From contig JAEUKT010000002.1 of NCBI GenBank assembly GCA_016794125.1, forward strand, positions 1,177,769-1,241,768: a DNA stretch of 64,000 nucleotides, in the 5' to 3' direction. This document shows positions 9,974 to 61,318 of this stretch, piece by piece (positions within the stretch are counted from its first letter, which is position 1; each line of letters starts with the position of its first letter). This DNA comes from Alphaproteobacteria bacterium. GTDB lineage: Bacteria; Pseudomonadota; Alphaproteobacteria; Micavibrionales; UBA2020. The position numbers and the translations under genes are program-made. Below the pieces are notes generated by a model. The model did no database searches. It saw only the letters and a program-made list of their open reading frames with translations, and was not told the origin of the DNA.

Positions 9974-11040
9974 GGCTGAACAGGCGCAATCGCGGCGACT
10001 GCCTGCGGTTTTTCGGCGGCCGTGTTGATCGCCGCTTTCACATCCGGCATTTTCGCGAAGCTGTCATTGGCGGGCAGCAGGGCGGGCACGGGGCGCGCGA
10101 TCGTGGGCGTGGCAGCTTTCGCGGGTTTGAACTTCTGGACTGTTTTCTTCACATATGCGACTGCGGTGCGCAGGTAAGGCTTCACGGCTTTTCCAACCGG
10201 CTGCGTCGCCACGCCCGCGATCAGCCCCACGCCACCATGAAGGGCAAGCGACGCCGCGCCCTGCACCAGCGTATTCGATGACAGGTAACCCAGCGCGGCG
10301 TTCGCAATGTGATCCGCGCCCGGTATGCCATGCACCAGCATCGTGCCGCCGACCACGAACATCGCGGCGGAACCCAGCACGCCGATCGCCTTGATCAGCT
10401 TGGGCGCGATGCGCACCAGACCTTCGCCGGCCTTGCGCACGGTTTTCGAGAAAATGCTGTCGCCCTTTTTGGCGGCCATGCTGTCGCCCAGGTCGTCGAG
10501 CTTGATGACGCCCGCAACCGTGGCATACACCCCGACCGTCATGGCAAGCGCTGTCGCCGCCAGCGTGCCCAGCTGGATCAGGAACGGCGCGCCCGCGACG
10601 GTGAGCAGCGATACTGTCGTGATTTCGGCGGACAGCAGAAGGTCGGTGCGGATGGCATGCTTGATATGCTGTTTTTCCCATCCGGCATGATCCTGCGCAT
10701 GGGCCTCGTTCGCTTCGGGCTTCGGCGCCTTCATCTTGCGGTGGACAATTTTTTCCATCGCGTCATAACACAGCAGCGCGCCGCCCGCCGCGAGCATCGG
10801 GACAATCAATCCGGGCATGGTGAAGGTGAGCCCCAGCGCGGTCGGGATCAGGATGGCTTTATTCTTGAGCGCGCCCTTGAACACCTGCCAGACCATCGGC
10901 AGCTTGCGGTGGCTCTGCCCGCCGATCAGCAGGTTGCAGGCAATCGCCGTGTCGTCGCCGACCACGCCCAGCGTCTGCACCGCCGCGCGTTGCGACAGGG
11001 CAGCGATTTCTCCCAGCTGTGCGGCGAAGCCTGCCGACAT
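9943..11040 (-). CDS. DUF808 paralog 3, divergent, with C-terminal Pro/Ala/Lys extension
   Basis: QTLGVVGDDTAIA, TDLLLSAEITT, GVIKLDDLG, GSAAMFVVGGTMLVHG; tail PANDSFAKMPDVKAAINTAAEKPQ...KPPPAP. Start revised to 11040 by alignment with the other copies. Confidence 0.85.
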   Translation of the reverse strand: MSAGFAAQLGEIAALSQRAAVQTLGVVGDDTAIACNLLIGGQSHRKLPMVWQVFKGALKNKAILIPTALGLTFTMPGLIVPMLAAGGALLCYDAMEKIVHRKMKAPKPEANEAHAQDHAGWEKQHIKHAIRTDLLLSAEITTVSLLTVAGAPFLIQLGTLAATALAMTVGVYATVAGVIKLDDLGDSMAAKKGDSIFSKTVRKAGEGLVRIAPKLIKAIGVLGSAAMFVVGGTMLVHGIPGADHIANAALGYLSSNTLVQGAASLALHGGVGLIAGVATQPVGKAVKPYLRTAVAYVKKTVQKFKPAKAATPTIARPVPALLPANDSFAKMPDVKAAINTAAEKPQAVAAIAPVQPQVLKPPPAP

Positions 11041-11122
11041 GCGCGATGATCTTTCTGTTGTTGAACGACAGAAAAGATACCCCATGGGGTACAATAAGGA
11101 AAGTATTATGTAACTTATTGAT

Positions 11123-25598: not shown

Positions 25599-26213
25599 TC
25601 AGAATAAAGACAGTTGATTATGGTCTTCTGGTAAATCGCTGTTCGCGGGGCGCTGGAATTGCCCGGTCGAGGTCAGCATGAATTCCATCGAATCGTCGGC
25701 GCGGAACAGGGCAGGGTCGGGGGCGGCCAGCCAGCGGCGGCAATCATCGACCGTCTGCAAAATCACCGGCATCCGGTCATGGACGGTCGCAACGGCGGGC
25801 ACGGCGGCTGTGGTCAGCACCGCAAAACCGTCGCGCCCGTTGAAGGTATCCCAGATGCCGGCAAAGCCCGTGACGCGCGCGGGCACGATGTCAAACGGCT
25901 GGGGCGGTTTTTGCGTGCGGTCCCATTCAAAGAAACCATCGGCAAGGATAATGCAGCGCCGCGCCTGCACACTGTCGCGGAAGGACGGTTTTTCAAAGAT
26001 CGTTTCGGAACGGCAATTGACCAGCGGCTTGCCCTCCCTCGCCCAGCGCGGGACATAGCCCCAATAAAGATGCTCGATGGAATCGGCGCGGATGACGGGC
26101 AGGGATGTGCCGGGGGTGGCCACACCTGCTGCATCCACAAAACGCGGCATTTTGATGCCGAAACGGTCGGCCAGTTCCTGCAAAGCAGCGATTTGTTTAT
26201 AGCGCCCGCACAT
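25599..26213 (-). CDS. SOS response-associated peptidase (SRAP/YedK, abasic-site protecting)
   Basis: MCGRY N-terminus (catalytic Cys2), NCRSET, DGFFEW, HDRMPVIL. Start revised to 26213. Confidence 0.9.
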   Translation of the reverse strand: MCGRYKQIAALQELADRFGIKMPRFVDAAGVATPGTSLPVIRADSIEHLYWGYVPRWAREGKPLVNCRSETIFEKPSFRDSVQARRCIILADGFFEWDRTQKPPQPFDIVPARVTGFAGIWDTFNGRDGFAVLTTAAVPAVATVHDRMPVILQTVDDCRRWLAAPDPALFRADDSMEFMLTSTGQFQRPANSDLPEDHNQLSLF

Positions 26214-26252
26214 GATATAGTCGCTTTCCAAAATTCGAGAAGGAATAGAGCA

Positions 26253-27275
26253 ATGGCGGACCAAAAGGGCAAGACAATTCTGACAGGCGTGAAGCCCACG
26301 GGCGCGCCGCATATCGGCAATTATATCGGCGCCATCCGCCCCGCGCTGCGCCTTGCCGCAAGCCACGAGAAATCTTACCTGTTCATCGCCGATTACCATG
26401 CGCTGAACGCGGTGTACGATCCAAAAGCGTTGAAGGAAGACAGCTATCAGGTCGCGGCCTGCTGGCTCGCGCTCGGGCTCGATCCCGCGAAAACGGTTTT
26501 GTACCGCCAGTCGGATATTCCGGAGATTCCGGAACTTGTCACGATTTTATCCGCCGTCACGCCCAAGGGCTTGATGGACCGCAGCCATGCGTATAAAGCC
26601 GCGAAGGACCGCAACGCCGAAGAAAACCGCGACCCCGATAACGATGTGAATATGGGCCTCTATACCTATCCGCTGCTGATGGCCGCCGACATCCTGATTG
26701 CGAATACCGATATCGTGCCGGTGGGCAAGGATCAGGTGCAGCACATCGAATTCGCGCGCGACATGGCGGGCTATTTCAACGGCGCGTTTAAGAAAAACGT
26801 GCTGAAGCTGCCCGAATACCAGCTGGAGGCCGGCGGCGCGCTGCTGCCCGGCATCGACGGCCGCAAGATGAGCAAGTCATACGGCAACCATATCCCCGTC
26901 TTCATCGACAGCGCCGCGCGCCGCAAGCTGGTGATGAAAACCGTCACGGATTCCAAACTGCCCGCCGAAGCCAAGAACCCCGATGAAAACGTGATCTTCC
27001 AGATCTACACGCATGTCGGCACGCCGGAAGAAGTGCAGGCGATGCGCGACGCCTTTGAAAAAGGCGGCATGGGCTATGGCGACGCGAAACAGAAATTGTT
27101 CGAGGCGCTGGAACGCAACTTCGAACAGCCCACCGCGAAGTATAACGAGCTGATGGCCGACCGGAAAAAACTGGACGACATTCTGGAGGAAGGCGCAGCC
27201 CGCGCGCGCAAAGTGACGCGCGAGACGCTGTCGAATGTCAGGGAAGCGATTGGGTTGACGCGGCTGCGTAACTAA
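26253..27275 (+). CDS. trpS: Tryptophan--tRNA ligase
   Basis: TGVKPTGAPHIGNYIG (HIGH-like), VPVGKDQVQHIE, KMSKSYGN. Start revised to 26253 (RBS AAGGA). Confidence 0.98.
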   Translation: MADQKGKTILTGVKPTGAPHIGNYIGAIRPALRLAASHEKSYLFIADYHALNAVYDPKALKEDSYQVAACWLALGLDPAKTVLYRQSDIPEIPELVTILSAVTPKGLMDRSHAYKAAKDRNAEENRDPDNDVNMGLYTYPLLMAADILIANTDIVPVGKDQVQHIEFARDMAGYFNGAFKKNVLKLPEYQLEAGGALLPGIDGRKMSKSYGNHIPVFIDSAARRKLVMKTVTDSKLPAEAKNPDENVIFQIYTHVGTPEEVQAMRDAFEKGGMGYGDAKQKLFEALERNFEQPTAKYNELMADRKKLDDILEEGAARARKVTRETLSNVREAIGLTRLRN

Positions 27276-41494: not shown

Positions 41495-42412
41495 TTACGC
41501 GAGCTTTTTCGTGCGCGTTTTGACTTTCTTCGCCAGGAAAGCGTAGCTCATGATCTTGTAGGCCAGCTTGGCGGCGAGGAAGTCGCAGCCATGCATATTG
41601 GGCTTGGGCGCCAGTTCGTTCACATCCGCGCCGATGAAGGTCGAGACCTTCGCGACTTCGCGGATGATGTTGACGGCTTCGTCCCAGAACAACCCGCCCG
41701 GCTCCGGCGTGCCGGTCGCGGGGATCATGCTGGCGTCAAACGCGTCAATGTCGAAGGTGACATAGACGTTCTTGCCCTTGAAGTTGCGCACGATCTCCTT
41801 CATGTCCCACAGGTGCTTTTCGCGCGCCCAGTAGATTTTCAGGCGTTTCTTGTTTTTCTCCAGGAACGGGATTTCGCCAGACGATATGTTGCGGATGCCA
41901 AATGAATAAACGCTGACATTCGCAGGATCCATCGTGCGGCAGATGGCTGACGCATGGGAATAATGCTCGCCATGATAACCGTCGCGCAGGTCGGCATGCG
42001 CGTCGAAATGCAGCACCGCCACATCCTTGAAATTGCGCGCATAGGGACGGATCGCGCCCGCCGTGATCGAATGTTCGCCGCCGAACACGAAGGGAAATTT
42101 GCCCATCGCCAGCACTTCTTCGACTTGTGCATCCAGCTGTTCCAGCGCCTTTTCGACCGATTTTGCGATCTTCACGGGTTTTGCGGTCACAACGCCGTAT
42201 TCGCGGAACGGTTCGCTCCAGAATTCGTCGTCGAACAATTCGACTTGATGCGACGCGTTGATCATCGCGGCGGGGCCTTTCGACGTGCCGCCGCCATAGG
42301 ACACCGACGCTTCAAGGCCGAAGGGAATGACGACGACTTGCGCGTCTTTGGGCGATACGGCATCGCCCTTTTCAAGGCCGAGGAAGCCGTCGGCGGGTTT
42401 CATGAATTCCAT
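41495..42412 (-). CDS. speB: Agmatinase / ureohydrolase
   Basis: GGEHSIT, HFDAHADLR, TFDIDAFD, PATGTPEPGG. Confidence 0.92.
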   Translation of the reverse strand: MEFMKPADGFLGLEKGDAVSPKDAQVVVIPFGLEASVSYGGGTSKGPAAMINASHQVELFDDEFWSEPFREYGVVTAKPVKIAKSVEKALEQLDAQVEEVLAMGKFPFVFGGEHSITAGAIRPYARNFKDVAVLHFDAHADLRDGYHGEHYSHASAICRTMDPANVSVYSFGIRNISSGEIPFLEKNKKRLKIYWAREKHLWDMKEIVRNFKGKNVYVTFDIDAFDASMIPATGTPEPGGLFWDEAVNIIREVAKVSTFIGADVNELAPKPNMHGCDFLAAKLAYKIMSYAFLAKKVKTRTKKLA

Positions 42413-42473
42413 TTTATGCTCCTTTCAAAATTTCTGACGGCAAGAATAGCGACACCGCCGGCGTTTTCAAGCC

Positions 42474-42902
42474 TTACTCGTCGTCGATCATCCCGCTGCC
42501 CTTGGAAATCGCCAGGAAAGCGTCGCGGTCGAGGTTTACGTGGGGGCCAAGGTCATGCTGGTCGAGGTCTTCGATCGGCACCCAGACGAATTCGCTATGC
42601 TCCGGCGTCAGCTTCACCTTGTCGCCGAGCGGGCGGCAGAGATATGCGAGGTTCAAAAGCGGCTGACCTTCGCGTTTTCCCGTGCGGGCGTGGAAAATCT
42701 GCATCACATCGACCTTCAACCCGGTTTCTTCCTTGTATTCGCGGGCGAGCGCGTCTTCGGGTGACTCCCCATGCTCCACGCCGCCGCCGCAGAATTCCCA
42801 GCCGATGAATTCCGATCCCGGCGCGGGCGCGCGCTTCAATAGCAGGACTTCGCCCTCGTCGCTCATCAGCACGCCGGTTGCGCGGACATTGAATTGTGCC
42901 AT
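42474..42902 (-). CDS. NUDIX hydrolase
   Basis: Nudix box GGVEHGESPEDALAREYKEETG. Confidence 0.93.
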   Translation of the reverse strand: MAQFNVRATGVLMSDEGEVLLLKRAPAPGSEFIGWEFCGGGVEHGESPEDALAREYKEETGLKVDVMQIFHARTGKREGQPLLNLAYLCRPLGDKVKLTPEHSEFVWVPIEDLDQHDLGPHVNLDRDAFLAISKGSGMIDDE

Positions 42903-42974
42903 TTTGTGTATTCCTTCAAAAAGATTTCCGGCCGGAACTTTTTAACGGTTCCGGCCGGAATATTTCGTTATCGC

Positions 42975-44042
42975 TTACTTGAACAGCTTGTTCCAGTTGC
43001 GGCGGCTGCGTTTTTTCCAGTAGCCGCGATGATAAGCGTCGGATGCCAGCAGCGGCATGACCGAGCCTGCTTCCGCGAACACCATCTGCTCAAGCGCAAC
43101 GTCCACCTTACCCCAGCTGCACGCTTCTTTCAGCGTGGAGGAGGAGCAGGCGCCGTCGCGCACATCGGCGATGGTGATCTGCACGGCATATTTGTGCATA
43201 TCAACATCTTTGTGGCCGAGGATTTCCGCGCAGACGACGGTGTCCTGCGTGAAGTTTTTCGGCACGCCGCCGCCGATCATCAGCAGGCCGGTGGTGCCGG
43301 CTGCGATTTTCACGTCGGTCAGTTCGCGGAAGTCAGCCACCGCGTCGATGCACATATAGTTCTTGGGGTTTTTCTTCTGGTGCAGCACAAGGCCGAAACC
43401 AGCGGAAGAATCCACGAAAGCGGGGCAGAAGATCGGCACGCCGTGTTCATAGCATGCAGCGATCAGCGAGTTTTTCTTCTTCGCTTTTTTCGTCAGGTAT
43501 TTGCCCATTTCCCAGATGAATTCGCGCGACGAATAGGGGCGGCGCTCGAGGCTCTGCGCGATTTCAAAGATGGTGTGGTCGACAGCCTGCAGGTCTTCTT
43601 CGTCAATATAGGTGTCGTAAATGCGGTCGATGTAAAGATCGCGCAGTTCGCGGTCATCCACCTGGCTGTCGGCGCGGTAATGCTTGAAGCCGAGCGCTTC
43701 GAAGAAGTCCATGTCCACGATTGATGCGCCGGTTGCGACGATCACGTCGACCATGTTGCTTTTCACCATTTCGGTGTACAGGTCCATGCAGCCGCCGGCC
43801 GAGGTGGAGCCCGCGAGCGTCAGGATGGAGGTCGCGCCCTTGTCCTGCAGCATGGTGTTGAAAATATCTGCCGCGCGGGAAAGGTCGCGCGAGGTGAAGG
43901 ACATTTTGCCCATACCGTCGATGATCGGGCGCGCATCGAATTTCTTGATGTCGATATGCTCGATCGGGGTGTTCAGCAGCGCCGCCTTGCGGTTGCTTTT
44001 CGGGTGGGGTTTCGCCTTCACGGCTTTCAGGTTGCTTTTCAT
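42975..44042 (-). CDS. Deoxyhypusine synthase-like protein
   Basis: MSFTSR, DRIYDT, CPAFVDSS, IGGGVPKN, DGACSSSTLKEACSWGKV with the active-site Lys retained. Confidence 0.93.
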   Translation of the reverse strand: MKSNLKAVKAKPHPKSNRKAALLNTPIEHIDIKKFDARPIIDGMGKMSFTSRDLSRAADIFNTMLQDKGATSILTLAGSTSAGGCMDLYTEMVKSNMVDVIVATGASIVDMDFFEALGFKHYRADSQVDDRELRDLYIDRIYDTYIDEEDLQAVDHTIFEIAQSLERRPYSSREFIWEMGKYLTKKAKKKNSLIAACYEHGVPIFCPAFVDSSAGFGLVLHQKKNPKNYMCIDAVADFRELTDVKIAAGTTGLLMIGGGVPKNFTQDTVVCAEILGHKDVDMHKYAVQITIADVRDGACSSSTLKEACSWGKVDVALEQMVFAEAGSVMPLLASDAYHRGYWKKRSRRNWNKLFK

Positions 44043-44145
44043 GTCTTTAGTCCTTTTTATCAATCTGCCCTGCGCGTTTCAGGCCGCCCCTTAAGATAAG
44101 GAGTGGCCCTGAAAAGGGTTTTACGCGGTCAATTTGTGGCGAAAA

Positions 44146-45345
44146 TTATCCCGTCACGCAGAGTTCGTTTGAATCCGTCGTTTCCAGCGCGTCATCGTAG
44201 AGCGTGACCAGCGGCGGTGCCTTGACGGACACGACTTCATGGGCGGAAAAGCCGTTGAAGTCGGTACGCATGGTGTTCCCATAGGCGCCGAGCTGGCCGA
44301 TCTCGATGTAATCCCCTTCCCGGACGTCTTCCGGCAGGTAAAAGGGGCCAGGCATATAATCAATGCTGTCGCAGGTGGGGCCGTAGAAACGGAAACCCTT
44401 GTGCGGCGCACTGGTGCCTCCCGGCGTCGGACGGATGAGACGAACCGGGTAACGGAAACCCAGGTGGCCTGCGTCGAACAGGCTGCCATAGGTTCCATCA
44501 TTGATGTACAGCACATCGTCCTTGCGGAGCTCCACCTTGACGACCACGGATGCGCTCTCGGCCACAAGCGCGCGGCCGGGTTCGCACCAGAACTCGTAGC
44601 GGTCCGGGTGGGGAAGGCGGTCTAAACCGCTTTCGATGGCGTGTTTATAATCTGCAAGCGCCGGAGGCGCCATGTCGGGGTAGATCGACGGGAAGCCGCC
44701 GCCGATGTCGATGATATCGACGCGGGTGCGCGGGATCTGGCGCAGGATGCCGCCCACGATGTTCAGCGCCGCCACATAGGCAGCGGGGTCCATCGTTTGC
44801 GAGCCCACATGGAAGCAGATGCCAAGGCGCTTGGCATGCTTGCGCGCGAGCTTCAGCACTTCGGGCGCTTTTTCCGGCAGGCAGCCGAACTTGCCGGCGA
44901 GCGGCAATTCCGACGAGGTGTTGGGGACAGCGAGACGCAGACACAGGCCGAGGTCTTTCGACTTGCCGGTGCAGGCGACGATCTTTTCCAGTTCCTCGAC
45001 CGAGTCAAAGGAGAAGTCGCGCACGCCGTAATCAAAATACGCCTGCTCGATGGCATGGCGGCTTTTGACAGGGTGCATAAAGGCGATATGGCTGCCGGGG
45101 GCGATTTCGTTCACCAGCTGGATTTCGGGGATGGATGCCGCGTCAAAATGCTTCACGCCCGCATCGCGCAGGCCGGCCAGCACGTATTTGGCGGGGTTCG
45201 CCTTGACGGCGTACAGCACCTTGCCCGGGAAATTGTCGAGAAACCACTTTGCAGAGGTCTGCAGGGCGGCGGGGCGGAAACAGGTAACGGGAATGTTGGG
45301 GCGTCGCTGGCGGACTACGTCTTCGGGGCCGTCGAATTTTTCCAT
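44146..45345 (-). CDS. Fold-type III PLP decarboxylase (ornithine decarboxylase-like)
   Basis: YAVKANP, FHVGSQ, DIGGGFP, EPGRALV, GPTCDSID. Confidence 0.93.
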   Translation of the reverse strand: MEKFDGPEDVVRQRRPNIPVTCFRPAALQTSAKWFLDNFPGKVLYAVKANPAKYVLAGLRDAGVKHFDAASIPEIQLVNEIAPGSHIAFMHPVKSRHAIEQAYFDYGVRDFSFDSVEELEKIVACTGKSKDLGLCLRLAVPNTSSELPLAGKFGCLPEKAPEVLKLARKHAKRLGICFHVGSQTMDPAAYVAALNIVGGILRQIPRTRVDIIDIGGGFPSIYPDMAPPALADYKHAIESGLDRLPHPDRYEFWCEPGRALVAESASVVVKVELRKDDVLYINDGTYGSLFDAGHLGFRYPVRLIRPTPGGTSAPHKGFRFYGPTCDSIDYMPGPFYLPEDVREGDYIEIGQLGAYGNTMRTDFNGFSAHEVVSVKAPPLVTLYDDALETTDSNELCVTG

Positions 45346-49899: not shown

Positions 49900-51138
49900 T
49901 CAGCCGGGGTTGTTCTCGCCCTGTTCGGCGGGCCTGTTCTGTCCCGCTTCGCCGCACATGGTGAAGGCGCGTGTGGCGGCGAAAGGGCCGATCGTTTCGA
50001 AAACCGCGACCATGCCGAAGACCAGCGCCGATACCTGCGCGCCCGTGCCGGGCAACAGCTTGTTCAGTGTCGTGGCAAGCCCGATCGCCATGCCGGCCAT
50101 CGGTATGATAAGTAGCGATGCCGCCGCCGCCTGCCTGTTATCGACCGTCGTGAAGCGCGACGCAATAAAAACGCCGGCGGTTTTCGTGGCGCAGCGTATC
50201 AGCACCAGCAGCACGGGCGCGATGCCCGCCATCATCAGCGCAGGCAGGTCAATTTTCGCCCCCGCCAGCACGAACAGGGCGATGAAGAACAGGTCGCCCC
50301 CTTCGCCGAAGCCGACCTTTGACAGGTTGGATTTGGATGATTCAAACCAGCGGGTGGCGATGCCCATCACCAGCGGCGCGAACAGCCCCGACATGCCCAG
50401 CATGCTGCAAACGCCCAGCGTGACCATGACCGCGCCGATCACGACGACAAAACGGTAATGTTCGTCCTGCTCGCGAAAGACGCGGGCGATGCGCACGGCG
50501 CACCAGGCAGCGAAAATGCCGACGCCCGTCGCGCCGAACAGGCGGTAGGCCGGCACCAGGACCGCAGCCGATGCCGCGCTGGTTTCCGGCGCCATCGCAA
50601 AGGGCAGCACGGCGGAAAACACGATGAAGGAAAAAAGGTTGTTCATCGCCACCAGCGATTTCGCCAGCGACGTGACCGTGCCTTTCGCGCGCATTTCCTC
50701 CGCCACATGGACCAGCACGGCGGGGGACGACGAAATGGCGATCGCGCCGATCAGGGCCGCAACCGTCCAGCTGTTGCCAAGGAATTTAACCGCGAACGTC
50801 ACGCCGGCGAAGGTCAGCAGGCTTTCGAGTATTGCTGTCAGCATGATGCGCTTCGAGCGCAGCATCGCCTCCGGATGCAGCATGTTACCCAGCTTGTAAA
50901 GGATCAGCCCCAGCGCGATGTCGATGATGACATACGCGTCCTTCAGCATGTCGGCGGTGATCAGCCCAAGCCCGTGCGGACCCGTCAGGAGCCCCAGCAG
51001 CATGAAGGCGGTGATGGTGGGCATCAGGTGGATGCGGTTCGCAATCAGCCCCCCTGTGACCCCCAGCAGGAGCAGCATGCCAAAGGCCAGCATCGCGTTC
51101 GGGTGCAGATTGGGGATATAGGTCAGGAAGGCTTCCAT
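49900..51138 (-). CDS. Cation:proton antiporter (CPA family)
   Basis: About 12 TM segments; SSSPAVLVHV, LVAMNNL, FFVLAGA-like LFVLAGAKID, FETIGP. Confidence 0.85.
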   Translation of the reverse strand: MEAFLTYIPNLHPNAMLAFGMLLLLGVTGGLIANRIHLMPTITAFMLLGLLTGPHGLGLITADMLKDAYVIIDIALGLILYKLGNMLHPEAMLRSKRIMLTAILESLLTFAGVTFAVKFLGNSWTVAALIGAIAISSSPAVLVHVAEEMRAKGTVTSLAKSLVAMNNLFSFIVFSAVLPFAMAPETSAASAAVLVPAYRLFGATGVGIFAAWCAVRIARVFREQDEHYRFVVVIGAVMVTLGVCSMLGMSGLFAPLVMGIATRWFESSKSNLSKVGFGEGGDLFFIALFVLAGAKIDLPALMMAGIAPVLLVLIRCATKTAGVFIASRFTTVDNRQAAAASLLIIPMAGMAIGLATTLNKLLPGTGAQVSALVFGMVAVFETIGPFAATRAFTMCGEAGQNRPAEQGENNPG

Positions 51139-51270
51139 GCGGCATCATTGCTCCGGTTACAGCCGGAATATAATGGCGGAGCGCGGGAAAAATCAACTAT
51201 CGTTCGGCAGGAGGTAGAAAGCCGGGCGCTGCAAGCCCGGCTTTCCTATCTTCAATGCAATGCGCTGATA

Positions 51271-51786
51271 TTAAATCTCGCGCCCGCTTTGGTGATCTGT
51301 ATTGAAATAGGTGTCATTACCGCCTGCACTGCTGGTGCGGTATTCCTTCTGATAGTCGCGCGCCAGGCTTTCAAGGTCTTCGACCGTGCGCGACGACACT
51401 GCGCTTGCCTCGCCGTGGCCCTCGTCAAGGCCGTCGCCCTGAATATTTTCGTCATAAACCTCCGAGCCTTCAAGGCGCAGGCCGGCGGATTTCCAGTCTT
51501 GCTTGCCGCCGACGTAATCGGACACGTTGGTATAACCGAGGCCTTCGAGGATTTCCGCAGCCTTGGTCGATGCCGCGCAATCGGCGCTGGCGCAATAGGT
51601 GACAATTTTCCGCGATTTGTCGGCCAGCTGCTTGGGCGCTTCGGCGGCCAGCGTTTCCAGTGGCATCGACAGCGCGCCCGGGATATGGCCGTGGTCGTAT
51701 TCGGATTTGGGCAATGCCTCGATAAGGGCGAAATCCTCGCCCGACGACATCAGCCTGTTCAGCTCGTCACGTTTAATGGGTTGCAT
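51271..51786 (-). CDS. Rhodanese-like domain protein with acidic C-terminal extension
   Basis: YDHGHIPGALSMP, IVTYCASADC, GYTNVSDYVGGKQDW; RBS GGAGG before 51786. Confidence 0.9.
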   Translation of the reverse strand: MQPIKRDELNRLMSSGEDFALIEALPKSEYDHGHIPGALSMPLETLAAEAPKQLADKSRKIVTYCASADCAASTKAAEILEGLGYTNVSDYVGGKQDWKSAGLRLEGSEVYDENIQGDGLDEGHGEASAVSSRTVEDLESLARDYQKEYRTSSAGGNDTYFNTDHQSGREI

Positions 51787-51888
51787 GGAATCCTCCATTG
51801 CCCTTCAAGCGGGCGTTCGTTGACAGGTTGTAACTGACAAACGAACGAGGGCGGCAGGGGTTCCCCGAAAATGCCCGCCCAAAAATGA

Positions 51889-51919
51889 AAGAAGCCGGGC
51901 ATCAAAAGCCCGGCTTCTT
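51889..51919 (-). terminator. Intrinsic terminator after the Cys-rich peptide
   Basis: AAGAAGCCGGGC/GCCCGGCTTCTT stem, followed by TTTCATTTTT on the minus strand. Confidence 0.75.
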
Positions 51920-51942
51920 GAAATCACAGTGAAGCGGTTATA

Positions 51943-52110
51943 TTAGCCGCCGCACGAACCCGATTTCTCCTTGGAAGAACCGCAGGAGCCGGTGTTGGTG
52001 CCGCAAGAGCCCGAGGTCTCAACTTTTTTCGCTTCCGTGCCGCAAGAGCCGGTTTTGGGAGCGTTGGAGGAACAGGAGCCTTTTTCGTCTTTTTTGAGTT
52101 GTTCTTGCAT
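51943..52110 (-). CDS. 55-aa peptide with five GSC(G/S) repeats
   Basis: RBS AAAGGA, own terminator; MQEQLKKDEKGSCSSNAPKTGSCGTEAKKVETSGSCGTNTGSCGSSKEKSGSCGG, with repeats encoded by varied synonymous codons. Confidence 0.85.
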   Translation of the reverse strand: MQEQLKKDEKGSCSSNAPKTGSCGTEAKKVETSGSCGTNTGSCGSSKEKSGSCGG

Positions 52111-52382
52111 GGCAATTATCCTTTTGTTGGGTTGCACCTGACGCCGCATTCGCAGTCGTCACGGGAAAGGATATAGCCCCCGAAAAGGCCTTGTCCACCC
52201 GTCATCCCGGCAATTCAGGCACGTACCTGTTAGTCCGTTGATATAGCGTGTAATATATATTAATTATTATTTTCATAATAATATAAGTAATCGATCAAAA
52301 ACGCCACATTCGCCGTCAGTACTGCTTCAGCCGGATATGGCATACTGGCATCGTTCCGGATTCGCAAAAGGAGCTTTGCGCC

Positions 52383-53222
52383 ATGTACAGCCGCCTGTTT
52401 TATTTCCTGATGCCGCTGGTGGTCGTGACCGCCATTATCGGCTTTTCCGCGCTGGCCGAAAACGACCATGCGGCGATGAAGCACGATGAACCTGCCGTTG
52501 AAAAACAGGCGGGCGGGATGCAGGCGCGCGTTTCGCCCGATGCGCTGGTGCAGGGCCGCGAAACCGCGTTCACGCTGACGCTGGCCAAAGACAATCTTCC
52601 TGTGTCGCTCGCCGCGCTGGAGGAACGCCATACCCGCAAAATCCACCTGCTGGTCGTGGATGAAAGCATGACCGATTACCATCATCTGCATCCCGTGGCG
52701 GGCGGCGAAGCGGGCACATACACTTTCGCCTTTACGCCGAATACCGCGCATAACTATATGCTCTATGCCGATGTGAAGCCGCTGAACGGTGCTGCGCAGA
52801 TGATTCCGGTGAAGCTGAACGGCGCTGTGCCCTGCGCTAAAGACTGCCTTGATAAATCCGCGGCCGACCGCGTGACGGCCGGCGATGTGACGGCGCAGGT
52901 GGTGTTTGACGGCAAAACGGTCAAGGCTGGTGCGCCCGTGAACGCCGAAGTGATCCTGACCGGCACCGACGGCAAGCCGCTTGCCGATCTCGAGCCCGTG
53001 ATGGGCGCATACGGACATATCGTCGGCTTCTATGAAGGCTTCAAGGCTGTCGCCCATATGCACCCGATGGGGGCGGAACCTGAAAAACCCGAAGACCGTG
53101 GCGCGTCGCCCGTGAAATTCATGCTGCATCCGGACCACCCCGGATACCTGAAATATTTCGTGCAGATCCGGCGCGGCGGCAAAGACGTATTTTTGCCTTT
53201 CGGCATCAACATAGAAAAATAA
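52383..53222 (+). CDS. Secreted His-rich putative metal-binding protein
   Basis: Signal peptide; EERHTRKIHL, DYHHLHP, LEPVMGAYGHIV, AHMHP. Function inferred from His clusters. Confidence 0.7.
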   Translation: MYSRLFYFLMPLVVVTAIIGFSALAENDHAAMKHDEPAVEKQAGGMQARVSPDALVQGRETAFTLTLAKDNLPVSLAALEERHTRKIHLLVVDESMTDYHHLHPVAGGEAGTYTFAFTPNTAHNYMLYADVKPLNGAAQMIPVKLNGAVPCAKDCLDKSAADRVTAGDVTAQVVFDGKTVKAGAPVNAEVILTGTDGKPLADLEPVMGAYGHIVGFYEGFKAVAHMHPMGAEPEKPEDRGASPVKFMLHPDHPGYLKYFVQIRRGGKDVFLPFGINIEK

Positions 53223-53246
53223 GCTGCCTGCAGCGCGCGCAAATGC

Positions 53247-53534
53247 CTAATGTATATCGTCGAAATGGCGCCCGTGATTGATTTCGGGGTTGAGGCGGTT
53301 TTCGCAGGTCAGGTCGTCGAATTTCTTCGTTACGTTGTCGGCCTTTACCATTTTCCTGATGCCGCGTTCCGACCCGTAAAAGGCATCACCCTCGAATTTT
53401 TTCTGCGCGGCGCGCTCTTTTTCATGGTCGACAGGCTCCGGCCGCGCCTCGAGATTTTCAAAGTCGAGGCCGTTCAGGTGCAGCGTCTTGCGTTCGGTTT
53501 GCGTTGAATTTTCAGGGGTTTTGATGCCGGGCAT
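53247..53534 (-). CDS. Hypothetical protein (95 aa)
   Basis: Strong RBS CAGGAG; no family recognised. Confidence 0.65.
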   Translation of the reverse strand: MPGIKTPENSTQTERKTLHLNGLDFENLEARPEPVDHEKERAAQKKFEGDAFYGSERGIRKMVKADNVTKKFDDLTCENRLNPEINHGRHFDDIH

Positions 53535-53605: not shown

Positions 53606-54280
53606 CTACTCGCGGCGCAGCACGACAAAATGTCCCGCCCAGCGCGTCTGGAAGCCAAGGCGGTTGTACAGGGCTACCGCACGGTCGTTATCGGCGCGGG
53701 AATGCAGGAAGGGCGTTTCGCCGCGCGCGATAATCCCCTGCATCACCTTCGTCATCACCGCCGCCGCATAACCGCGCCCCGTGTAATCGGGATGGGTGCA
53801 GACGGCGCTGACTTCGGTGTATCCCGGCACCTTCATCCGCTCGCCCGCAAGAGCAACCAGTTTACTGTCCTGATAGATGCCGAAATAATCGCCCATTTCA
53901 TGCGTGCGGCTGGTGAAGGGGCCGGGGCGGGCAAGCGTCGTCAGCGCGATCATCTCCGCCGATTGCGCGGCGCTAAGTTTCACGATTTCCGCCGTGCTTT
54001 CTTTCGCATCGGGAATGCCGCTGTCGCAGACCATGCGGATCAGCGGCGCACCCGCCAGCACTTCCCAGCCCTTGCGTGGCTGCCAGGGCTCGGCCAAAAA
54101 CAGCGCGGTCACGCCGTTGCCCAGCAATGCCGCCAGTGCATCATGATCGACCTCGCCGTTTTCAAACCCGCTGAAGGGCGCGACTTCGGGCACGAAACGC
54201 TTCACCCCGCCGTCGCCCATCGCGAAATGGGATTGGCGGGTGGTAAGCGCGGTCCAGATGATGTTGTCGAGCGGTTGCAT
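53606..54280 (-). CDS. GNAT family acetyltransferase (FR47-like)
   Basis: LDNIIWTAL, AGERMK, EVSAVCTHPDYTGRGYA, AVALYNRLGF. Start revised to 54280. Confidence 0.92.
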   Translation of the reverse strand: MQPLDNIIWTALTTRQSHFAMGDGGVKRFVPEVAPFSGFENGEVDHDALAALLGNGVTALFLAEPWQPRKGWEVLAGAPLIRMVCDSGIPDAKESTAEIVKLSAAQSAEMIALTTLARPGPFTSRTHEMGDYFGIYQDSKLVALAGERMKVPGYTEVSAVCTHPDYTGRGYAAAVMTKVMQGIIARGETPFLHSRADNDRAVALYNRLGFQTRWAGHFVVLRRE

Positions 54281-54281
54281 G

Positions 54282-54980
54282 CTAACTGATGAGTAACAAA
54301 CGCGGCGGGCGGCCGTCAACCGTGTCGGGCGCGCGGTGGATGCAGGGCGCAACGGGGCTGCCCGGATATTCGACCGCGATGCGCCACATATTGCCGATGC
54401 CGAACGAATAGCGCACGGCGTTTGGGAGCGGAGCATAATGCAGGTCGTAACAATTCTCGCGCAGGAATTCCTCGAAGCTTCCGCCGCCTTTATTCGCGAA
54501 TAAATCCTGCAATTTTTGCCGCGTTACGGGATTGTCGATGCGGCGTTGCGCGGAGGCATTGTCCAGCCCTTCGCTCGAAGATTCGTTATAGCTGCACAGA
54601 TAGGTGTCGGCCTGAACGGGCGCGCGGTCGGCGTGGAAAGAATATACATCCGTCGGCACGGCGTTGCCGTCGTCGCGCGGATAGCGCGGCACGCATTCAA
54701 GGCTGGGCAGCAGGCCGCGTTCCTGCAACAGCTGACGGTCGGCCAATAATATATCGGCAGCGATGCAGCCCTGTGCGCTCAGGCGCGGGCGTAGGCTTTC
54801 AATGGCTTCTTCATCCAGCGAAACGATGTCTTCTTCGTTCTGCAGCAGCGCCGCGATTTCATCGAAATTGCCCGGCAATTGCCGCGCCCAGCAGATCGCA
54901 TTCACCTCCGGCCCGAAGGATGCGTTCACCAGATCGTCGAAACTGCCGACGATGCGTATGCGGGATGTGGCCGGCGTCAT
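54282..54980 (-). CDS. DUF1826-like protein
   Basis: NAICWAR, DVYSFHADRAP..TYLCSY, CIHRAP pattern; family assignment from recall. Confidence 0.7.
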   Translation of the reverse strand: MTPATSRIRIVGSFDDLVNASFGPEVNAICWARQLPGNFDEIAALLQNEEDIVSLDEEAIESLRPRLSAQGCIAADILLADRQLLQERGLLPSLECVPRYPRDDGNAVPTDVYSFHADRAPVQADTYLCSYNESSSEGLDNASAQRRIDNPVTRQKLQDLFANKGGGSFEEFLRENCYDLHYAPLPNAVRYSFGIGNMWRIAVEYPGSPVAPCIHRAPDTVDGRPPRLLLIS

Positions 54981-58669: not shown

Positions 58670-60025
58670 ATGCCCATGATCGACCCGAAAGAATTCTTTG
58701 CCGAAAACCCCGATGTCGAGACGCTCGAAGCGTTTATCGTCGATGTCAGCGGCATCCTGCGCGGCAAGAAAATGCCCCGCCAGAACGCGGATAAACTATT
58801 CAAGGGCGGCGTGCGCATGCCGCGTTCCGCTTTCGCGGTCGATATCTGGGGGCAGGACGTTCCAGCGGCGCAGCTGATCATCGAAACGGGCGATAACGAC
58901 GGTGTTTGCTATCCTGTCCGTAATTCGCTGCGCATGGTGCCGTGGCTGAAAAACACCGCGCAGGTGATGCTGACGATGAAGGAACCCGACGGCCGCCCGT
59001 TCTTCGGCGACAGCCGACAGGTGTTGAAAAAAATCGTCGGCCTCTACGCAAAAAAGGGCTGGACGCCCGTGGTGGCGGCGGAGCTGGAATTCTACCTGCT
59101 GGATGCGCAGATGGATGAACGCGGCAATCCGCAACCGCCGCTGTCGCCCCGTTCCGGCAAGCGCTCCAACGCCGCGCACCTGTTCAGCATTTCTGAAATC
59201 ACCGAATTCGACAACGTGCTGGGCGGCATTTCCAAGGCCTGTGACATGCAGGGGATTCCGGCCGATGCATGCATCTCGGAAAACGGGCCCGGCCAGTATG
59301 AAATCAACCTGTACCATGTGCCGGACGCGCTGGCCGCCGCCGACCATGCGACGCTGATGAAGCGCGTCGTGCGCGGCGTGGCGCGCAAGCACGGTTTCGA
59401 TGCGACCTTCATGGCGAAACCCTACGGCAACGAAGCCGGCAACGGCATGCACGTGCATTTCAGCGTGATCGACAAAAACGGCAAAAACATTTTCGCGGGC
59501 AAGGATTACAAGGGATCGCCCGCGCTGCGCCATGCGCTGGGCGGCCTTTTGAAACATATGGGCGACACGACCGCGATTTTCGCGCCCAACTTCAACTCCT
59601 ACCGCCGTTTCGCTGTGGGCAGCCATGCGCCGACGGCGGTGGCATGGGGATACGACAACCGCACGGCGGCCTGCCGCGTGCCCGCCGCCGATATCGACGC
59701 CACGCGCATCGAACACCGCGTGGCCGGCGGCGACACCAACCCGTATCTGTGCATCGCCGCGATTTTGGCCGCCGCCTATGACGGACTTGTGAACAGGCTG
59801 GATCCCGGCAAGCCGGCCAGCGGCAACATCTATAACTCCAAGGCCAAACGCCTGCCCAACGCATGGGAAACCGCGCTGGAACTGTTCGAAGGATCGAAAT
59901 TCATCAAAAAATATTTCGGCGAAAATTACCAGCGTATGTACCTTGCCTGCAAATTACAGGAGCAGGACATCATCGACCGCCAGGTCAGCTCTCTCGAATA
60001 CGACACTTACCTCAGGGATATCTAA
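58670..60025 (+). CDS. Glutamine synthetase-like protein (gamma-glutamylpolyamine synthetase, PuuA-like)
   Basis: DVSGILRGK, AAELEFYL, ENGPGQYEIN, FMAKPY..GNGMHVHFS, WGYDNRTAACRVP, IEHRVAGGDTNPY. Confidence 0.88.
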   Translation: MPMIDPKEFFAENPDVETLEAFIVDVSGILRGKKMPRQNADKLFKGGVRMPRSAFAVDIWGQDVPAAQLIIETGDNDGVCYPVRNSLRMVPWLKNTAQVMLTMKEPDGRPFFGDSRQVLKKIVGLYAKKGWTPVVAAELEFYLLDAQMDERGNPQPPLSPRSGKRSNAAHLFSISEITEFDNVLGGISKACDMQGIPADACISENGPGQYEINLYHVPDALAAADHATLMKRVVRGVARKHGFDATFMAKPYGNEAGNGMHVHFSVIDKNGKNIFAGKDYKGSPALRHALGGLLKHMGDTTAIFAPNFNSYRRFAVGSHAPTAVAWGYDNRTAACRVPAADIDATRIEHRVAGGDTNPYLCIAAILAAAYDGLVNRLDPGKPASGNIYNSKAKRLPNAWETALELFEGSKFIKKYFGENYQRMYLACKLQEQDIIDRQVSSLEYDTYLRDI

Positions 60026-60028
60026 ATC

Positions 60029-61318
60029 TTGCAAGCACAACCCGCCACACATACCGGTTCATATTACGCAGCCAGCGCCAACCCGCAGCCCGAACGCCCG
60101 CCGCTGCAGGGCGACGTCACTGCCGATGTCTGCGTGATCGGCGCAGGCTTTGCCGGCATTTCGACCGCGTTGCACCTTGCCGAAAAAGGCCTGAAGGTGG
60201 TGGTGCTGGAGGCGGTGAAAATCGCGTTCGGAGCATCGGGCCGCAACGGCGGGCAGATCATCAACGGCTATTCCCGCGATTACGACACCATTCTGGGTCG
60301 CTACGGTCAGGACACGGCGAAAGCGCTTTTGAACATGAGCTTCGAGGGTGGCGACATCATCCGCGAACGCATACAAAAATATAACATCAAATGCGATCAC
60401 AAAACCGGCAGCTTCTTCGCCGCCTTCACGCCCGCGCAGATGAAATTCCTGCAACGCCGCCGCGAAGTCTGGGCAAGCGCGGGTCACGACCAGACCGAAA
60501 TGTACGACGACAAAAAGGTGCGCGAAGTTTCCGACACGCCGCTGTATATCGGCGGCATGCTGGATAAGCGCGGCGGGCATATCCACCCGATGAACCTTGT
60601 GCTGGGTCAGGCGGCGGCGCTGGAATCCCTCGGCGGTAAAATTTACGAGCTCAGCCGCGTGACGCATATCGACAAGGGCGCAAAACCCGTCGCCCATACC
60701 GCGCAGGGCAAGGTGACCGCGAATTTCATCGTCGTCTGCGGCAACGCCTATATCGGCGAAAGCGTGCCGGAACTGCCGCACCGTTTCATGTCGGTCAGCA
60801 GCCAGATTGTGACGACCGAGGTGCTGGGCGCGGAGCTGACGGATAAAATGATGCCGTCCGATTTCTGCCTCGAGGATTGCAATTACCTGCTCGATTACTA
60901 CCGTATCACGGGCGACAAACGCCTGCTGTTCGGCGGCGGTGTGGTTTATACAGGGGCGGAGCCGTCGGATATCATCCGCCGCCTTGAACCCCACGTCCTC
61001 AAGACCTTCCCCTTCCTCAAGGGCAAAAAATTCGATTTCGCGTGGAGCGGCAATTTCGCGCTGACGCTCACCCGTATGCCGCATATCGGGCGTTTGTCGG
61101 ATACGGTCTATTTCATTCAGGGCGACAGCGGGCACGGGGTGACCACCACCCACCTGCTGGGCCGCCTGACCGCCGAAGCGATCAACCAGCAGGCCCGCCG
61201 CTGGGACGTTTTCGCGAATATGCCAAATTACCCCTTCCCCGGCGGCCGCCTGTTCCGCGTGCCGCTGACGATGATGGGGGCGTGGTATTATGGCATGAAG
61301 GAAAAATTAGGCCTTTAA
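60029..61318 (+). CDS. FAD-dependent oxidoreductase (PuuB/OrdL-like), TTG start
   Basis: SYYAASA, IGAGFAG, GASGRNGGQ, HIHPMNL, LDYYR, GHGV; directly after the PuuA-like gene. Confidence 0.9.
   Translation: MQAQPATHTGSYYAASANPQPERPPLQGDVTADVCVIGAGFAGISTALHLAEKGLKVVVLEAVKIAFGASGRNGGQIINGYSRDYDTILGRYGQDTAKALLNMSFEGGDIIRERIQKYNIKCDHKTGSFFAAFTPAQMKFLQRRREVWASAGHDQTEMYDDKKVREVSDTPLYIGGMLDKRGGHIHPMNLVLGQAAALESLGGKIYELSRVTHIDKGAKPVAHTAQGKVTANFIVVCGNAYIGESVPELPHRFMSVSSQIVTTEVLGAELTDKMMPSDFCLEDCNYLLDYYRITGDKRLLFGGGVVYTGAEPSDIIRRLEPHVLKTFPFLKGKKFDFAWSGNFALTLTRMPHIGRLSDTVYFIQGDSGHGVTTTHLLGRLTAEAINQQARRWDVFANMPNYPFPGGRLFRVPLTMMGAWYYGMKEKLGL

What the first reader, a model, noticed from the sequence alone, without database searches (positions are those of the whole stretch)
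51943..52110. 55-aa peptide with five GSC(G/S) repeats: metallothionein-like or RiPP precursor
It has a good RBS, a dedicated terminator and synonymous-codon variation among the repeats, all indicating a real selected peptide. Five Cys occur in GSCS/GSCG units, ending in CGG. The periodic single-Cys motif recalls the EGKCG-repeat precursors modified by DUF692/MNIO enzymes, but there is no signal peptide and no modifying enzyme in the window. It is flanked by a rhodanese and a His-rich secreted protein, which fits metal or sulfur handling.
Basis: partly seen in the sequence, partly recalled or inferred. Interest (0 to 1): 0.7.

Follow-up and report, generated by a model that had tools for sequence, protein, structure and literature searches.

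The report
Conserved small cysteine-repeat peptide gene
This is a real, conserved gene for a 55-residue floppy peptide carrying five Gly-Ser-Cys units, from a rare undescribed family in uncultured Micavibrio-like alphaproteobacteria; it most likely binds soft metals (or sulfur) through its thiols, but that function is untested.

Summary
A 55-codon ORF lies on the minus strand at 51943-52110, with an AAGGA ribosome-binding site, a near-consensus promoter, a 5' hairpin and its own strong terminator. It encodes five G-S-C-(G/S) units. Orthologues show purifying selection (dN/dS 0.2-0.45), in-frame indels only and invariant Cys.

The family is tiny: 43 clusters among 5.8 billion proteins. It has no Pfam or NCBIfam model. 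Members are 44-73 aa, lack a signal peptide, are predicted fully disordered, and carry usually four (range 2-5) units with Lys/Glu linkers.

In Micavibrio-like genomes the gene sits divergently from a secreted tandem Ig-like protein with seven conserved His. That protein's relatives carry the HMBD domain and lie in Cus/Czc and copper-ATPase islands. A rhodanese follows in 10 of 12 readable loci.

No RiPP maturase was found in the 64-kb window or in the 16 other family loci. The repeat unit does resemble that of a genuine MNIO-associated, signal-peptide-bearing precursor in a Holophaga MAG.

Best reading (about 0.4): a cytoplasmic multi-thiol buffer for soft metals. Rivals are a rhodanese-loaded sulfane-sulfur carrier and a RiPP precursor with a distant maturase. 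It is not a member of the metallothionein or bufferin families as defined.

The parts
51943..52110 (-). CDS of the 55-aa Cys-repeat peptide (five G-S-C-G/S units; four are the conserved family core and one is a recent in-frame 21-nt duplication shared only with L005)
52119..52123 (-). Ribosome-binding site AAGGA, 8 nt upstream of the ATG
   Evidence: conserved in orthologous loci
52138..52162 (-). 5'-proximal GC-rich hairpin of the transcript (GTGACGACTGC-GAAT-GCGGCGTCAG). A hairpin is predicted at the same position in most related loci, with different sequence.
52171..52197 (-). Promoter TGGACA-N15-GCTATAT. It is the only match to TKG-N17-SCTATAT in the window and is present upstream of the peptide gene in 13 of the 17 loci held at that point.
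51889..51919 (-). Intrinsic terminator directly after the peptide gene and before the rhodanese
   Evidence: equivalent terminators after the peptide gene in L009, L012, L013, L017 and L020
52238..52282 (.). Conserved AT-rich block in the divergent intergenic region (TTGATAT, ATATATAT, and TTTTCATAAT inside an ATTATTAT-TTTC-ATAATAAT palindrome). Probably the promoter or operator for p279 and perhaps for both genes.
52383..53222 (+). p279: a secreted or membrane-anchored protein with two Ig-like beta-sandwich domains and invariant or near-invariant His 83, 88, 101, 103, 212, 225 and 227. It belongs to a family linked to heavy-metal resistance loci and is divergently transcribed from the peptide gene.
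51271..51798 (-). Single-domain rhodanese (active-site loop TYCASADCAAST) with a ~65-aa acidic C-terminal tail, downstream of the peptide terminator

Best explanation
The ORF is a stand-alone, probably well-expressed gene for a cytoplasmic, intrinsically disordered, Lys/Glu-rich peptide. Its function resides in four to five exposed thiols, each set in a small-residue G-S-C-G/S unit. The most likely role is as a thiolate ligand that buffers soft metal ions in the cytoplasm, with Cu(I) most plausible and Zn, Cd or Hg possible. This would be a gene-encoded, low-density analogue of a metallothionein or phytochelatin. It would work alongside, and probably be co-regulated with, the divergently transcribed periplasmic His-rich metal-binding protein p279. 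The downstream rhodanese may supply or remove sulfane sulfur on the same thiols.

Shown: the gene is real and under selection; the Cys and their small flanks are the conserved feature; there is no signal peptide and no predicted fold; the gene has its own promoter, 5' hairpin and terminator; it is paired with a p279-family gene whose relatives lie in metal-resistance islands.

Inferred: metal binding itself, the identity of the metal, co-regulation with p279, and any role of the rhodanese.
For: Real gene: 43 homologous clusters and 16 representatives at 50% identity among 1.84 billion proteins. dN/dS is mostly 0.2-0.45, all indels are multiples of 3, and Ser codons switch between TCN and AGC while Gly-Ser-Cys is kept.

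Functional core is the thiols: G11, C13, G21, S22, C23, S42, C43, G51 and C53 are invariant across 21 sequences, while the linkers vary. Unit number ranges from 2 to 5, and L020 carries two tandem paralogues, as expected for a ligand-dosage peptide.

Disordered: AlphaFold mean pLDDT 51, no secondary structure.

Stand-alone unit: own promoter and terminator in every locus, in two unrelated gene neighbourhoods.

Metal context: a p279 homologue lies divergently upstream in 11 distinct loci, down to 43-50% identity. The p279 family has invariant or near-invariant His motifs HTxKIH, DYHHxHP and AHxHPMGxEP. Many relatives carry PF19335 HMBD. Members sit inside a CzcB/CzcA-type RND operon (L021), next to CusA/CzcA on a Legionella lytica plasmid, near a copper P-type ATPase on an L. 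pneumophila plasmid, and between a heavy-metal P-type ATPase with cupredoxin and a TolC/RND system on a Hymenobacter plasmid. In the L. pneumophila plasmid the slot divergent from the p279 homologue holds a small His/Gly-rich lipoprotein, another ligand-rich mini-protein.

The intergenic region shared with p279 carries motifs conserved out to L020.
Against: Nothing here shows metal binding. Cys density is only 9% and there are no CxC or CxxC pairs, unlike every characterised metallothionein.

The strict conservation of Gly-Ser before each Cys is more than simple thiolate ligation would require and looks like an enzyme recognition motif.

The p279 pairing is seen only within one order-level lineage, where typA, HD_4 and T2SSF are also syntenic, so it could reflect descent rather than function. 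In a second lineage (L012, L013, L017, L023) the peptide has no p279 or rhodanese neighbour.

p279 is periplasmic while the peptide has no export signal.

No metal-sensing regulator was found in the window.
Confidence: 0.4

Rival explanations
1. Sulfane-sulfur (persulfide/polysulfide) carrier. The downstream rhodanese loads sulfur onto the peptide's exposed cysteines, making it a ribosomally encoded sulfur buffer or donor, possibly also capping metal-sulfide clusters as phytochelatins do.
For: A rhodanese gene with a conserved catalytic loop TYCxSxxCxxST follows the peptide terminator in 10 of 12 distinct Micavibrio-like loci where the downstream gene can be read. The one locus with a Cys-less ORF in the peptide slot (L018) also lacks the rhodanese. 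The small flanks around each Cys would make the thiols accessible to an enzyme.
Against: The peptide occurs without a rhodanese in L014 and L020 and in all loci of the second lineage. A strong terminator separates the two genes. No persulfide dioxygenase, sulfide:quinone oxidoreductase or sulfur-sensing regulator was seen in the window.
Confidence: 0.2
2. RiPP precursor. The G-S-C-G units are modified (for example Cys to 5-thiooxazole by an MNIO, or azole formation or rSAM cross-links) by enzymes encoded elsewhere in the genome, giving a bufferin-like metallophore.
For: The family profile aligns to the repeat region of a Holophaga precursor (GSCGSDAKK..., DGSCGKDKKK x3) with hhalign probability 96.4%, E=1.3e-9. 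That precursor sits directly upstream of PF05114 MNIO (E=7e-90) and DUF2063 genes. Gly-Ser is invariant before each Cys. Three members give faint sub-threshold hits to TIGR04341 ACGX-repeat peptide. The literature reports some bufferin precursor genes unlinked to MNIO genes (PMC12452194).
Against: There is no signal peptide, whereas bufferin and Buf_EGKCG precursors have one (PMC12452194). No MNIO, DUF2063, DoxX, YcaO, radical-SAM or Lan enzyme was found in the 64-kb window or in the 16 other family loci fetched (tblastn for MNIO/DUF2063 only). The only Micavibrio genome in Table S4 of PMC12452194 has zero MNIO, DUF2063 or bufferin genes. The hhalign match is between low-complexity repeats.
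Confidence: 0.15
3. Another thiol-based role unrelated to metals or sulfur transfer, such as a sacrificial redox or oxidant scavenger, a ligand for an Fe-S cluster through the four core Cys, or a stress-induced hydrophilin-like protectant.
For: There are exactly four invariant Cys. The peptide is disordered and highly charged. The promoter resembles the S. meliloti RpoH1 consensus CTTGAA-N15-16-CCTATAT quoted in PMC4843759. The mRNA has hairpins at both ends, which suggests high expression.
Against: The promoter fits the alphaproteobacterial housekeeping consensus equally well (CTTGAC-N17-CTATAT, from my memory, not verified here). There is no redox partner or Fe-S assembly gene nearby. This reading does not explain the p279 pairing.
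Confidence: 0.15
4. Not a functional protein: a chance ORF, a leader peptide that attenuates the rhodanese, or a small RNA.
For: The ORF is short and of low complexity, and a terminator lies between it and the rhodanese.
Against: Purifying selection in this reading frame, in-frame indels, and peptide sequence conserved at 42-95% identity in two different gene neighbourhoods, including loci with no rhodanese. No Rfam match.
Confidence: 0.03

Closest known systems
Buf_EGKCG/oxazolin bufferin-like RiPP precursors (MNIO-modified copper-binding peptides; PMC12452194, PMC11252979)
   Same: Short repeated units with one Cys flanked by Gly and small residues and separated by Lys/acidic linkers. A GSCG-repeat precursor next to MNIO and DUF2063 genes in a Holophaga MAG aligns to this family's profile. 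Both have a metal-related context.
   Different: No Sec signal peptide. The motif is G-S-C-G/S, not E-G-K-C-G. There is no 17-residue double-motif repeat. No MNIO, DUF2063 or DoxX gene is nearby in any of the loci examined. The peptide is predicted disordered rather than a beta-helix.
Bacterial metallothioneins (SmtA/BmtA, MymT) and plant/fungal phytochelatins
   Same: Small, cytoplasmic, thiol-based and lacking a hydrophobic core. Copy and unit number vary. A single-thiol unit repeated along a flexible chain is conceptually like (gamma-Glu-Cys)n-Gly.
   Different: No sequence relationship (no Pfam or NCBIfam hit). Cys content is 9% rather than 15-30%, with no CxC or CxxC clusters. Unlike phytochelatins, it is ribosomally encoded.
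Disordered periplasmic metal sponges SilE/PcoE, and the small His/Gly-rich lipoproteins next to p279 homologues on Legionella plasmids
   Same: Low-complexity, ligand-rich mini-proteins encoded beside metal-handling genes. The Legionella example occupies the same position divergent from a p279 homologue.
   Different: Those use His or Met ligands and are exported. This peptide uses Cys and has no export signal.
TIGR04341 ACGX-repeat peptides (putative radical-SAM/SPASM targets) and microcin B17-type azole precursors containing G-S-C
   Same: Repeats with Cys next to Gly. G-S-C is a known substrate motif for azole formation in microcin B17 (my own knowledge).
   Different: Scores of 13-14 bits against a 28-bit cut-off. 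No radical-SAM or YcaO gene in the window.

Membership tests
Buf_EGKCG/oxazolin bufferin-like precursors | N-terminal Sec signal peptide | tested here: not met
   The peptide starts MQEQLKKDEK with no hydrophobic segment. The same holds for all 43 family clusters once mis-called N-terminal extensions are set aside.
Buf_EGKCG/oxazolin bufferin-like precursors | EGKCG motif, two per 17-residue repeat | tested here: not met
   Units are [KT]-G-S-C-[GS], spaced 7-13 residues apart, with no Glu or Lys adjacent to the Cys.
Buf_EGKCG/oxazolin bufferin-like precursors | Gene adjacent to MNIO (PF05114) and DUF2063 (with or without DoxX) | tested here: not met
   No such domain among the window ORFs scanned. 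tblastn with the L011 MNIO and DUF2063 proteins was negative in the window and in the family loci held at that point. The precomputed Pfam lists of later loci show none.
Buf_EGKCG/oxazolin bufferin-like precursors | MNIO and partner genes present somewhere in the same genome | not testable with these tools
Indirect evidence: Micavibrio aeruginosavorus has zero counts in Table S4 of PMC12452194.
Bacterial metallothionein (SmtA/BmtA type; MymT) | Match to the family model; high Cys density with CxC/CxxC clusters | tested here: not met
   No Pfam or NCBIfam hit at E<=1. There are 5 Cys in 55 residues, all isolated.
Bacterial metallothionein (functional class) | Stoichiometric thiolate binding of Zn, Cd or Cu | not testable with these tools
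   Requires biochemistry.
TIGR04341 ACGX-repeat peptide | Score above the curated cut-off (28 bits) and an adjacent radical-SAM/SPASM maturase | tested here: not met
   The two members shown individually score 13.3 and 13.8 bits; a third has the best E-value, 0.0076; the window peptide has no hit. No radical-SAM domain in the window.
Linear azole peptide (microcin B17-like) precursors | Adjacent YcaO cyclodehydratase, dehydrogenase and exporter | tested here: not met
   None among the window ORFs scanned.
p279 family ('heavy metal-binding domain-containing protein' body) | Two Ig-like domains with the HTxKIH, DYHHxHP and AHxHPMGxEP motifs | tested here: met
   Alignment A3, model with pLDDT 87 and tandem beta-sandwich matches. 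The window protein itself lacks the PF19335 module.

The most novel reading that the evidence does not exclude
The family is a ribosomally encoded counterpart of phytochelatin: a disordered chain of single-thiol G-S-C-G units that stays in the cytoplasm. The adjacent rhodanese loads it with sulfane sulfur to form peptide persulfides or peptide-capped metal-sulfide clusters. In this reading it would be a cytoplasmic, maturase-independent relative of the MNIO-modified bufferin precursors whose repeat unit it shares.
Probability: 0.15. Interest if true: 0.75.

Novelty: new variant of a known kind. Interest (0 to 1): 0.5.

Why it matters
If these peptides bind metal or sulfur, they would define a new and very small class of gene-encoded thiol buffers with an unusual design: isolated cysteines in fixed G-S-C-G units on a charged, disordered chain. 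They would also link two fields. Their repeat unit matches that of MNIO-modified bufferin-type precursors, yet they lack the signal peptide and the enzymes. This raises the question of whether an unmodified Cys-repeat peptide is the ancestral or a derived form of those metallophores.

The family is confined to uncultured Micavibrio-like alphaproteobacteria and one other lineage, groups whose metal and sulfur physiology is essentially unknown. The gene is missed by most annotations because it is so small.

Tried and rejected
- Pfam and NCBIfam on the peptide and on all 21 aligned members gave nothing above threshold; the only hits were faint ones to the ACGX-repeat model.
- Rfam on 51100-53300 at E<=1 gave nothing, so the conserved 5' UTR is not a known riboswitch.
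- PDB sequence search for p279 gave nothing. Foldseek gave only generic tandem Ig-like folds.
- The metagenome-contig scan with the peptide alignment matched 67 pattern stretches, none confirmed.
- tblastn of the peptide against plasmids found no match.
- I tried to assign the promoter to RpoH. It fits the S. meliloti RpoH1 consensus quoted in PMC4843759, but it fits the housekeeping alphaproteobacterial consensus (from memory) equally well, so I dropped the assignment. Literature searches for the exact consensus strings were unproductive.
- I compared the AT-rich palindrome by eye with remembered Fur and Zur boxes. The perfect palindrome is present only in the window and L005, so I rejected it as unconvincing.
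- I considered the leader-peptide/attenuator idea for the rhodanese and rejected it, because the peptide is conserved where no rhodanese follows.
- I considered the upstream GNAT and the DUF1826-like gene as possible modifiers and rejected them, because they are not linked to the peptide outside the closest relatives.

Full report
1. WHAT IS IN THE SEQUENCE

The finding's coordinates hold a minus-strand ORF, with ATG at 52110-52108 and TAA at 51945-51943. It encodes MQEQLKKDEKGSCSSNAPKTGSCGTEAKKVETSGSCGTNTGSCGSSKEKSGSCGG. The mechanical ORF list extends it to 68 aa from an upstream ATG. Homologues all begin at the MQ/MT position and the extension is not conserved, so the 55-aa form is the gene.

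The gene has the following signals:
- An AAGGA ribosome-binding site 8 nt upstream of the ATG.
- A promoter, TGGACA-N15-GCTATAT, at 52197-52171.
- A GC-rich hairpin at the start of the predicted transcript (52162-52138).
- An intrinsic terminator with a 12-bp stem at 51919-51889.

The five Gly-Ser-Cys units use different codons. Across all six frames of the 64-kb window there are only 24 GSC tripeptides. Five of them are in this ORF, and no other stop-free segment has more than one.

2. IT IS A REAL, SELECTED GENE FROM A VERY SMALL FAMILY

A single-sequence search found 7 relatives. An exhaustive profile search of 1.84 billion representatives found 16 at E<=0.001, one of them (P0018) a 606-aa repetitive protein that is a spurious low-complexity match. 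A profile search of 5.8 billion clusters found 43. None has a Pfam or NCBIfam assignment, and almost none has a name.

Members are 44-73 aa once mis-called N-terminal extensions are removed. They have no hydrophobic N-terminus and end zero to two residues after the last Cys. They usually contain four units of small-small-Cys-small, joined by Lys/Glu/Asp/Thr-rich linkers (range 2-5 units).

In a 21-sequence alignment the invariant positions are G11, C13, G21, S22, C23, K28, K29, S42, C43, G51 and C53. The window peptide and its closest relative, L005, carry one extra unit from an in-frame 21-nt duplication.

Pairwise dN/dS among nine orthologues is mostly 0.2-0.45. Every indel is a multiple of three. 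Ser codons switch between TCN and AGC while the residue is kept. AlphaFold with the family alignment gives a mean pLDDT of 51 and no secondary structure, so the peptide is intrinsically disordered. There is no Rfam hit in the region.

3. ORGANISM AND NEIGHBOURHOOD

Genome hits are all MAGs labelled Alphaproteobacteria, or mislabelled Bdellovibrionales or Patescibacteria. Homologues of the neighbouring protein include some named Micavibrio sp.. TypA is 92-98% identical to the window in most related loci and 75% in L020. The window therefore comes from an uncultured Micavibrio-like alphaproteobacterium.

The window's remaining genes are housekeeping: gap, tkt, gcvTHP, IleRS, polyamine genes, typA and others.

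Two stable contexts exist for the peptide gene.

Type A (Micavibrio-like lineage): T2SSF, then the p279 homologue, then divergently the peptide gene with its terminator, then [rhodanese], [Na/H exchanger], HD_4 and typA.
- A p279 homologue is divergently upstream in 11 distinct loci, down to about 43-50% identity.
- A rhodanese follows in 10 of the 12 loci where the downstream gene is readable. It is absent in L014 and L020.
- L020 has two tandem peptide genes. One is 44 aa with GGC, GAC, GSC and GSC units. The other is 46 aa with two GSC units. Each has its own CTGGAC-N15-nCTATA(T/C) promoter and terminator.
- In a Micavibrio sp. MAG (L018) the same slot holds a Cys-less, Gln/Glu-rich 63-aa ORF, and there is no rhodanese.

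Type B (another, unnamed proteobacterial lineage: L012, L013, L023): PHB depolymerase, beta-propeller, a Sel1/bPH_2 protein, then the peptide gene, then an Emr-type efflux system.
- In L017 a Sel1-AAA protein precedes the peptide gene.
- No p279 or rhodanese was detected there (L023 by its precomputed Pfam list only).

Because the peptide gene is the only shared element, and always has its own terminator where I read the downstream sequence, it is a self-contained unit.

4. THE DIVERGENT PARTNER IS A METAL-HANDLING PROTEIN

p279 has an N-terminal signal or anchor (cleavage-like site SALA/EN). A confident model (pLDDT 87) shows two Ig-like beta-sandwich domains. PDB matches are only generic tandem Ig folds, and there is no sequence match.

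In a 42-sequence alignment, H88, H101 and H103 are invariant, and H83, H212, H225 and H227 are at least 90% conserved. They lie in the motifs HTxKIH, DYHHxHP and AHxHPMGxEP.

Family members are linked to metal-resistance genes in several ways:
- Many distant relatives carry PF19335 (HMBD), and sources name them 'heavy metal-binding domain-containing protein'.
- One lies inside a CzcB/CzcA-type RND operon next to DUF4198 (L021).
- One lies 2.8 kb from CusA/CzcA on a Legionella lytica plasmid.
- One lies about 6 kb from a copper P-type ATPase on an L. pneumophila plasmid.
- One lies between a heavy-metal P-type ATPase with cupredoxin and a DUF305, HMBD, TolC and RND block on a Hymenobacter plasmid.

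On the L. pneumophila plasmid, the gene divergent from the p279 homologue encodes a 48-aa lipoprotein ending in HVAQGHVGHGGGGGR. This is another small ligand-rich peptide in the same position.

The window's intergenic region carries three AT-rich motifs conserved across type A loci as far as L020. This is compatible with shared regulation, but I could not identify a regulator.

5. TESTING THE RiPP IDEA

One weak genome hit, L011 from a Holophaga MAG, is a genuine bufferin-type cluster. It encodes a 109-aa precursor with a signal peptide and repeats (GSCGSDAKK..., DGSCGKDKKK x3). Directly downstream are PF05114 MNIO (E=7e-90) and DUF2063 genes. The family profile aligns to that repeat region with hhalign probability 96.4%. 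Both sequences are low-complexity, so this should be read with caution.

Against membership, by the published definition of Buf_EGKCG/oxazolins (Sec signal peptide, EGKCG motifs in 17-residue repeats, MNIO with DUF2063 and sometimes DoxX; PMC12452194):
- There is no signal peptide.
- The motif and spacing differ.
- No MNIO, DUF2063, DoxX, YcaO, radical-SAM or lanthipeptide enzyme is present in the 64-kb window.
- tblastn for MNIO and DUF2063 was negative in the family loci held at that point, and the precomputed Pfam lists of the later loci show none.
- The one Micavibrio genome in that paper's Table S4 has zero MNIO, DUF2063 or bufferin genes.

I could not scan the peptide-bearing MAGs themselves. 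That remains the decisive missing test.

6. MOST LIKELY MECHANISM

I favour a cytoplasmic multi-thiol buffer for soft metals, at about 0.4. Four to five exposed thiolates on a flexible, highly soluble chain could wrap one M(II) ion or a small Cu(I) cluster. The arguments for this are:
- Unit number and gene copy vary, as expected for a dosage-type ligand.
- The gene is built for strong expression, with a near-consensus promoter, mRNA hairpins at both ends and a good RBS.
- Its most consistent partner is a periplasmic protein of a metal-resistance-linked family.

Three points weaken this reading. Cys density is low. The strict Gly-Ser context hints at enzyme recognition. The p279 pairing may be inherited synteny within one order.

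The rivals are:
- A rhodanese-loaded sulfane-sulfur carrier (about 0.2).
- A RiPP precursor with a distant maturase (about 0.15).
- Another thiol-based stress function (about 0.15).
- A non-gene or leader peptide (about 0.03).

A combined reading, peptide-capped metal-sulfide clusters analogous to phytochelatin-CdS, is the most novel possibility that the evidence does not exclude.

7. NOVELTY AND VERDICT

The family is undescribed, rare and unannotated. By membership tests it is neither a metallothionein nor a bufferin or ACGX precursor. Functionally it probably belongs to the known kind 'small thiol-rich ligand peptides', with an unusual architecture. I rate it a new variant of a known kind, interest 0.5. 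It is a solid, cheaply testable lead, with no functional evidence yet.

Noticed in passing
window 52138-52162 (-); equivalent positions in L003, L005, L006, L010, L017, L020 and others: A GC-rich hairpin is predicted a few bases downstream of the -10 element in most peptide loci examined. Its sequence differs between lineages (for example GGAGGCG/CGCCTCC, GGGGGC/GCCCCC, GCCGGGA/TCCCGG). Together with the terminator it would give a short mRNA capped by hairpins at both ends, which probably stabilises the transcript.
   Followed up: partly
window 52238-52282: The divergent intergenic region holds conserved AT-rich motifs (YTGATAT, ATATATAT, TTnCATAA). In the window and L005 there is also a perfect ATTATTAT-N4-ATAATAAT palindrome. 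The regulator is unknown, and the resemblance to Fur or Zur boxes is unconvincing.
   Followed up: partly
L020 4221-4727 (-): Two tandem Cys-repeat peptide paralogues (44 and 46 aa), each with its own promoter and terminator. In one of them the residue before Cys is Gly, Ala or Ser, so Ser is not absolutely required.
   Followed up: yes
L018 4632-4823 (-): In a Micavibrio sp. MAG the peptide slot between the p279 homologue and HD_4 holds a Cys-free, Gln/Glu-rich 63-aa ORF, and the rhodanese is missing as well.
   Followed up: partly
L011 7848-9822: A Holophaga MAG carries a complete bufferin-type cluster: a signal-peptide precursor with DGSCGKDKKK repeats, an MNIO (PF05114) and a DUF2063 gene. 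The motif is GSCG rather than EGKCG.
   Followed up: yes
L025 6049-6195 (-) and 595-768 (-): On an L. pneumophila plasmid, small lipoproteins with His/Gly-rich tails (…GHVGHGGGGGR; …GGHNAGGHGGHGGGAGH) lie divergent from the p279 homologue and next to the copper ATPase.
   Followed up: no
window 52383-53222, residues C151 and C155 of p279: A CxxxC pair lies in the linker between the two Ig-like domains. It is present in the Micavibrio-like sequences shown (through P0066) and absent from the more distant ones (P0070 onward, including the HMBD-bearing relatives).
   Followed up: no
window 51271-51798 (-): The rhodanese has a two-Cys active-site loop (TYCxSxxCxxST) conserved in all linked copies. 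It also has a conserved ~65-aa acidic C-terminal tail ending in DHQSGREI, which is shorter in L003 and absent in the L022 copy.
   Followed up: partly
window 53606-54436 (-) and 54282-54980 (-): The longest GNAT (FR47-like) ORF overlaps the upstream DUF1826-like gene by 155 nt. Relatives are called at 224 aa, so the true start is probably the internal MQPLDN.
   Followed up: no
window 6490-7443, 7563-8738, 9943-11094 (all -): Three DUF808 paralogues lie within 5 kb.
   Followed up: no
window 41495-45345 (-) and 58670-61318 (+): A polyamine gene set: arginase/agmatinase family, NUDIX, deoxyhypusine-synthase-like (homospermidine-synthase type) and Orn/Arg decarboxylase. Further on there is a glutamine-synthetase-like gene plus an FAD oxidoreductase, resembling puuA/puuB.
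   Followed up: no
window 25659-27275 (+): A 538-aa class Ib (Trp/Tyr-type) tRNA synthetase homologue whose catalytic domain starts only at residue ~206, leaving a ~200-aa N-terminal extension with no Pfam match.
   Followed up: no
window 2838-3626 (-): An AAA_21/AAA_15 ATPase of the AbiEii-like type lies among housekeeping genes.
   Followed up: no
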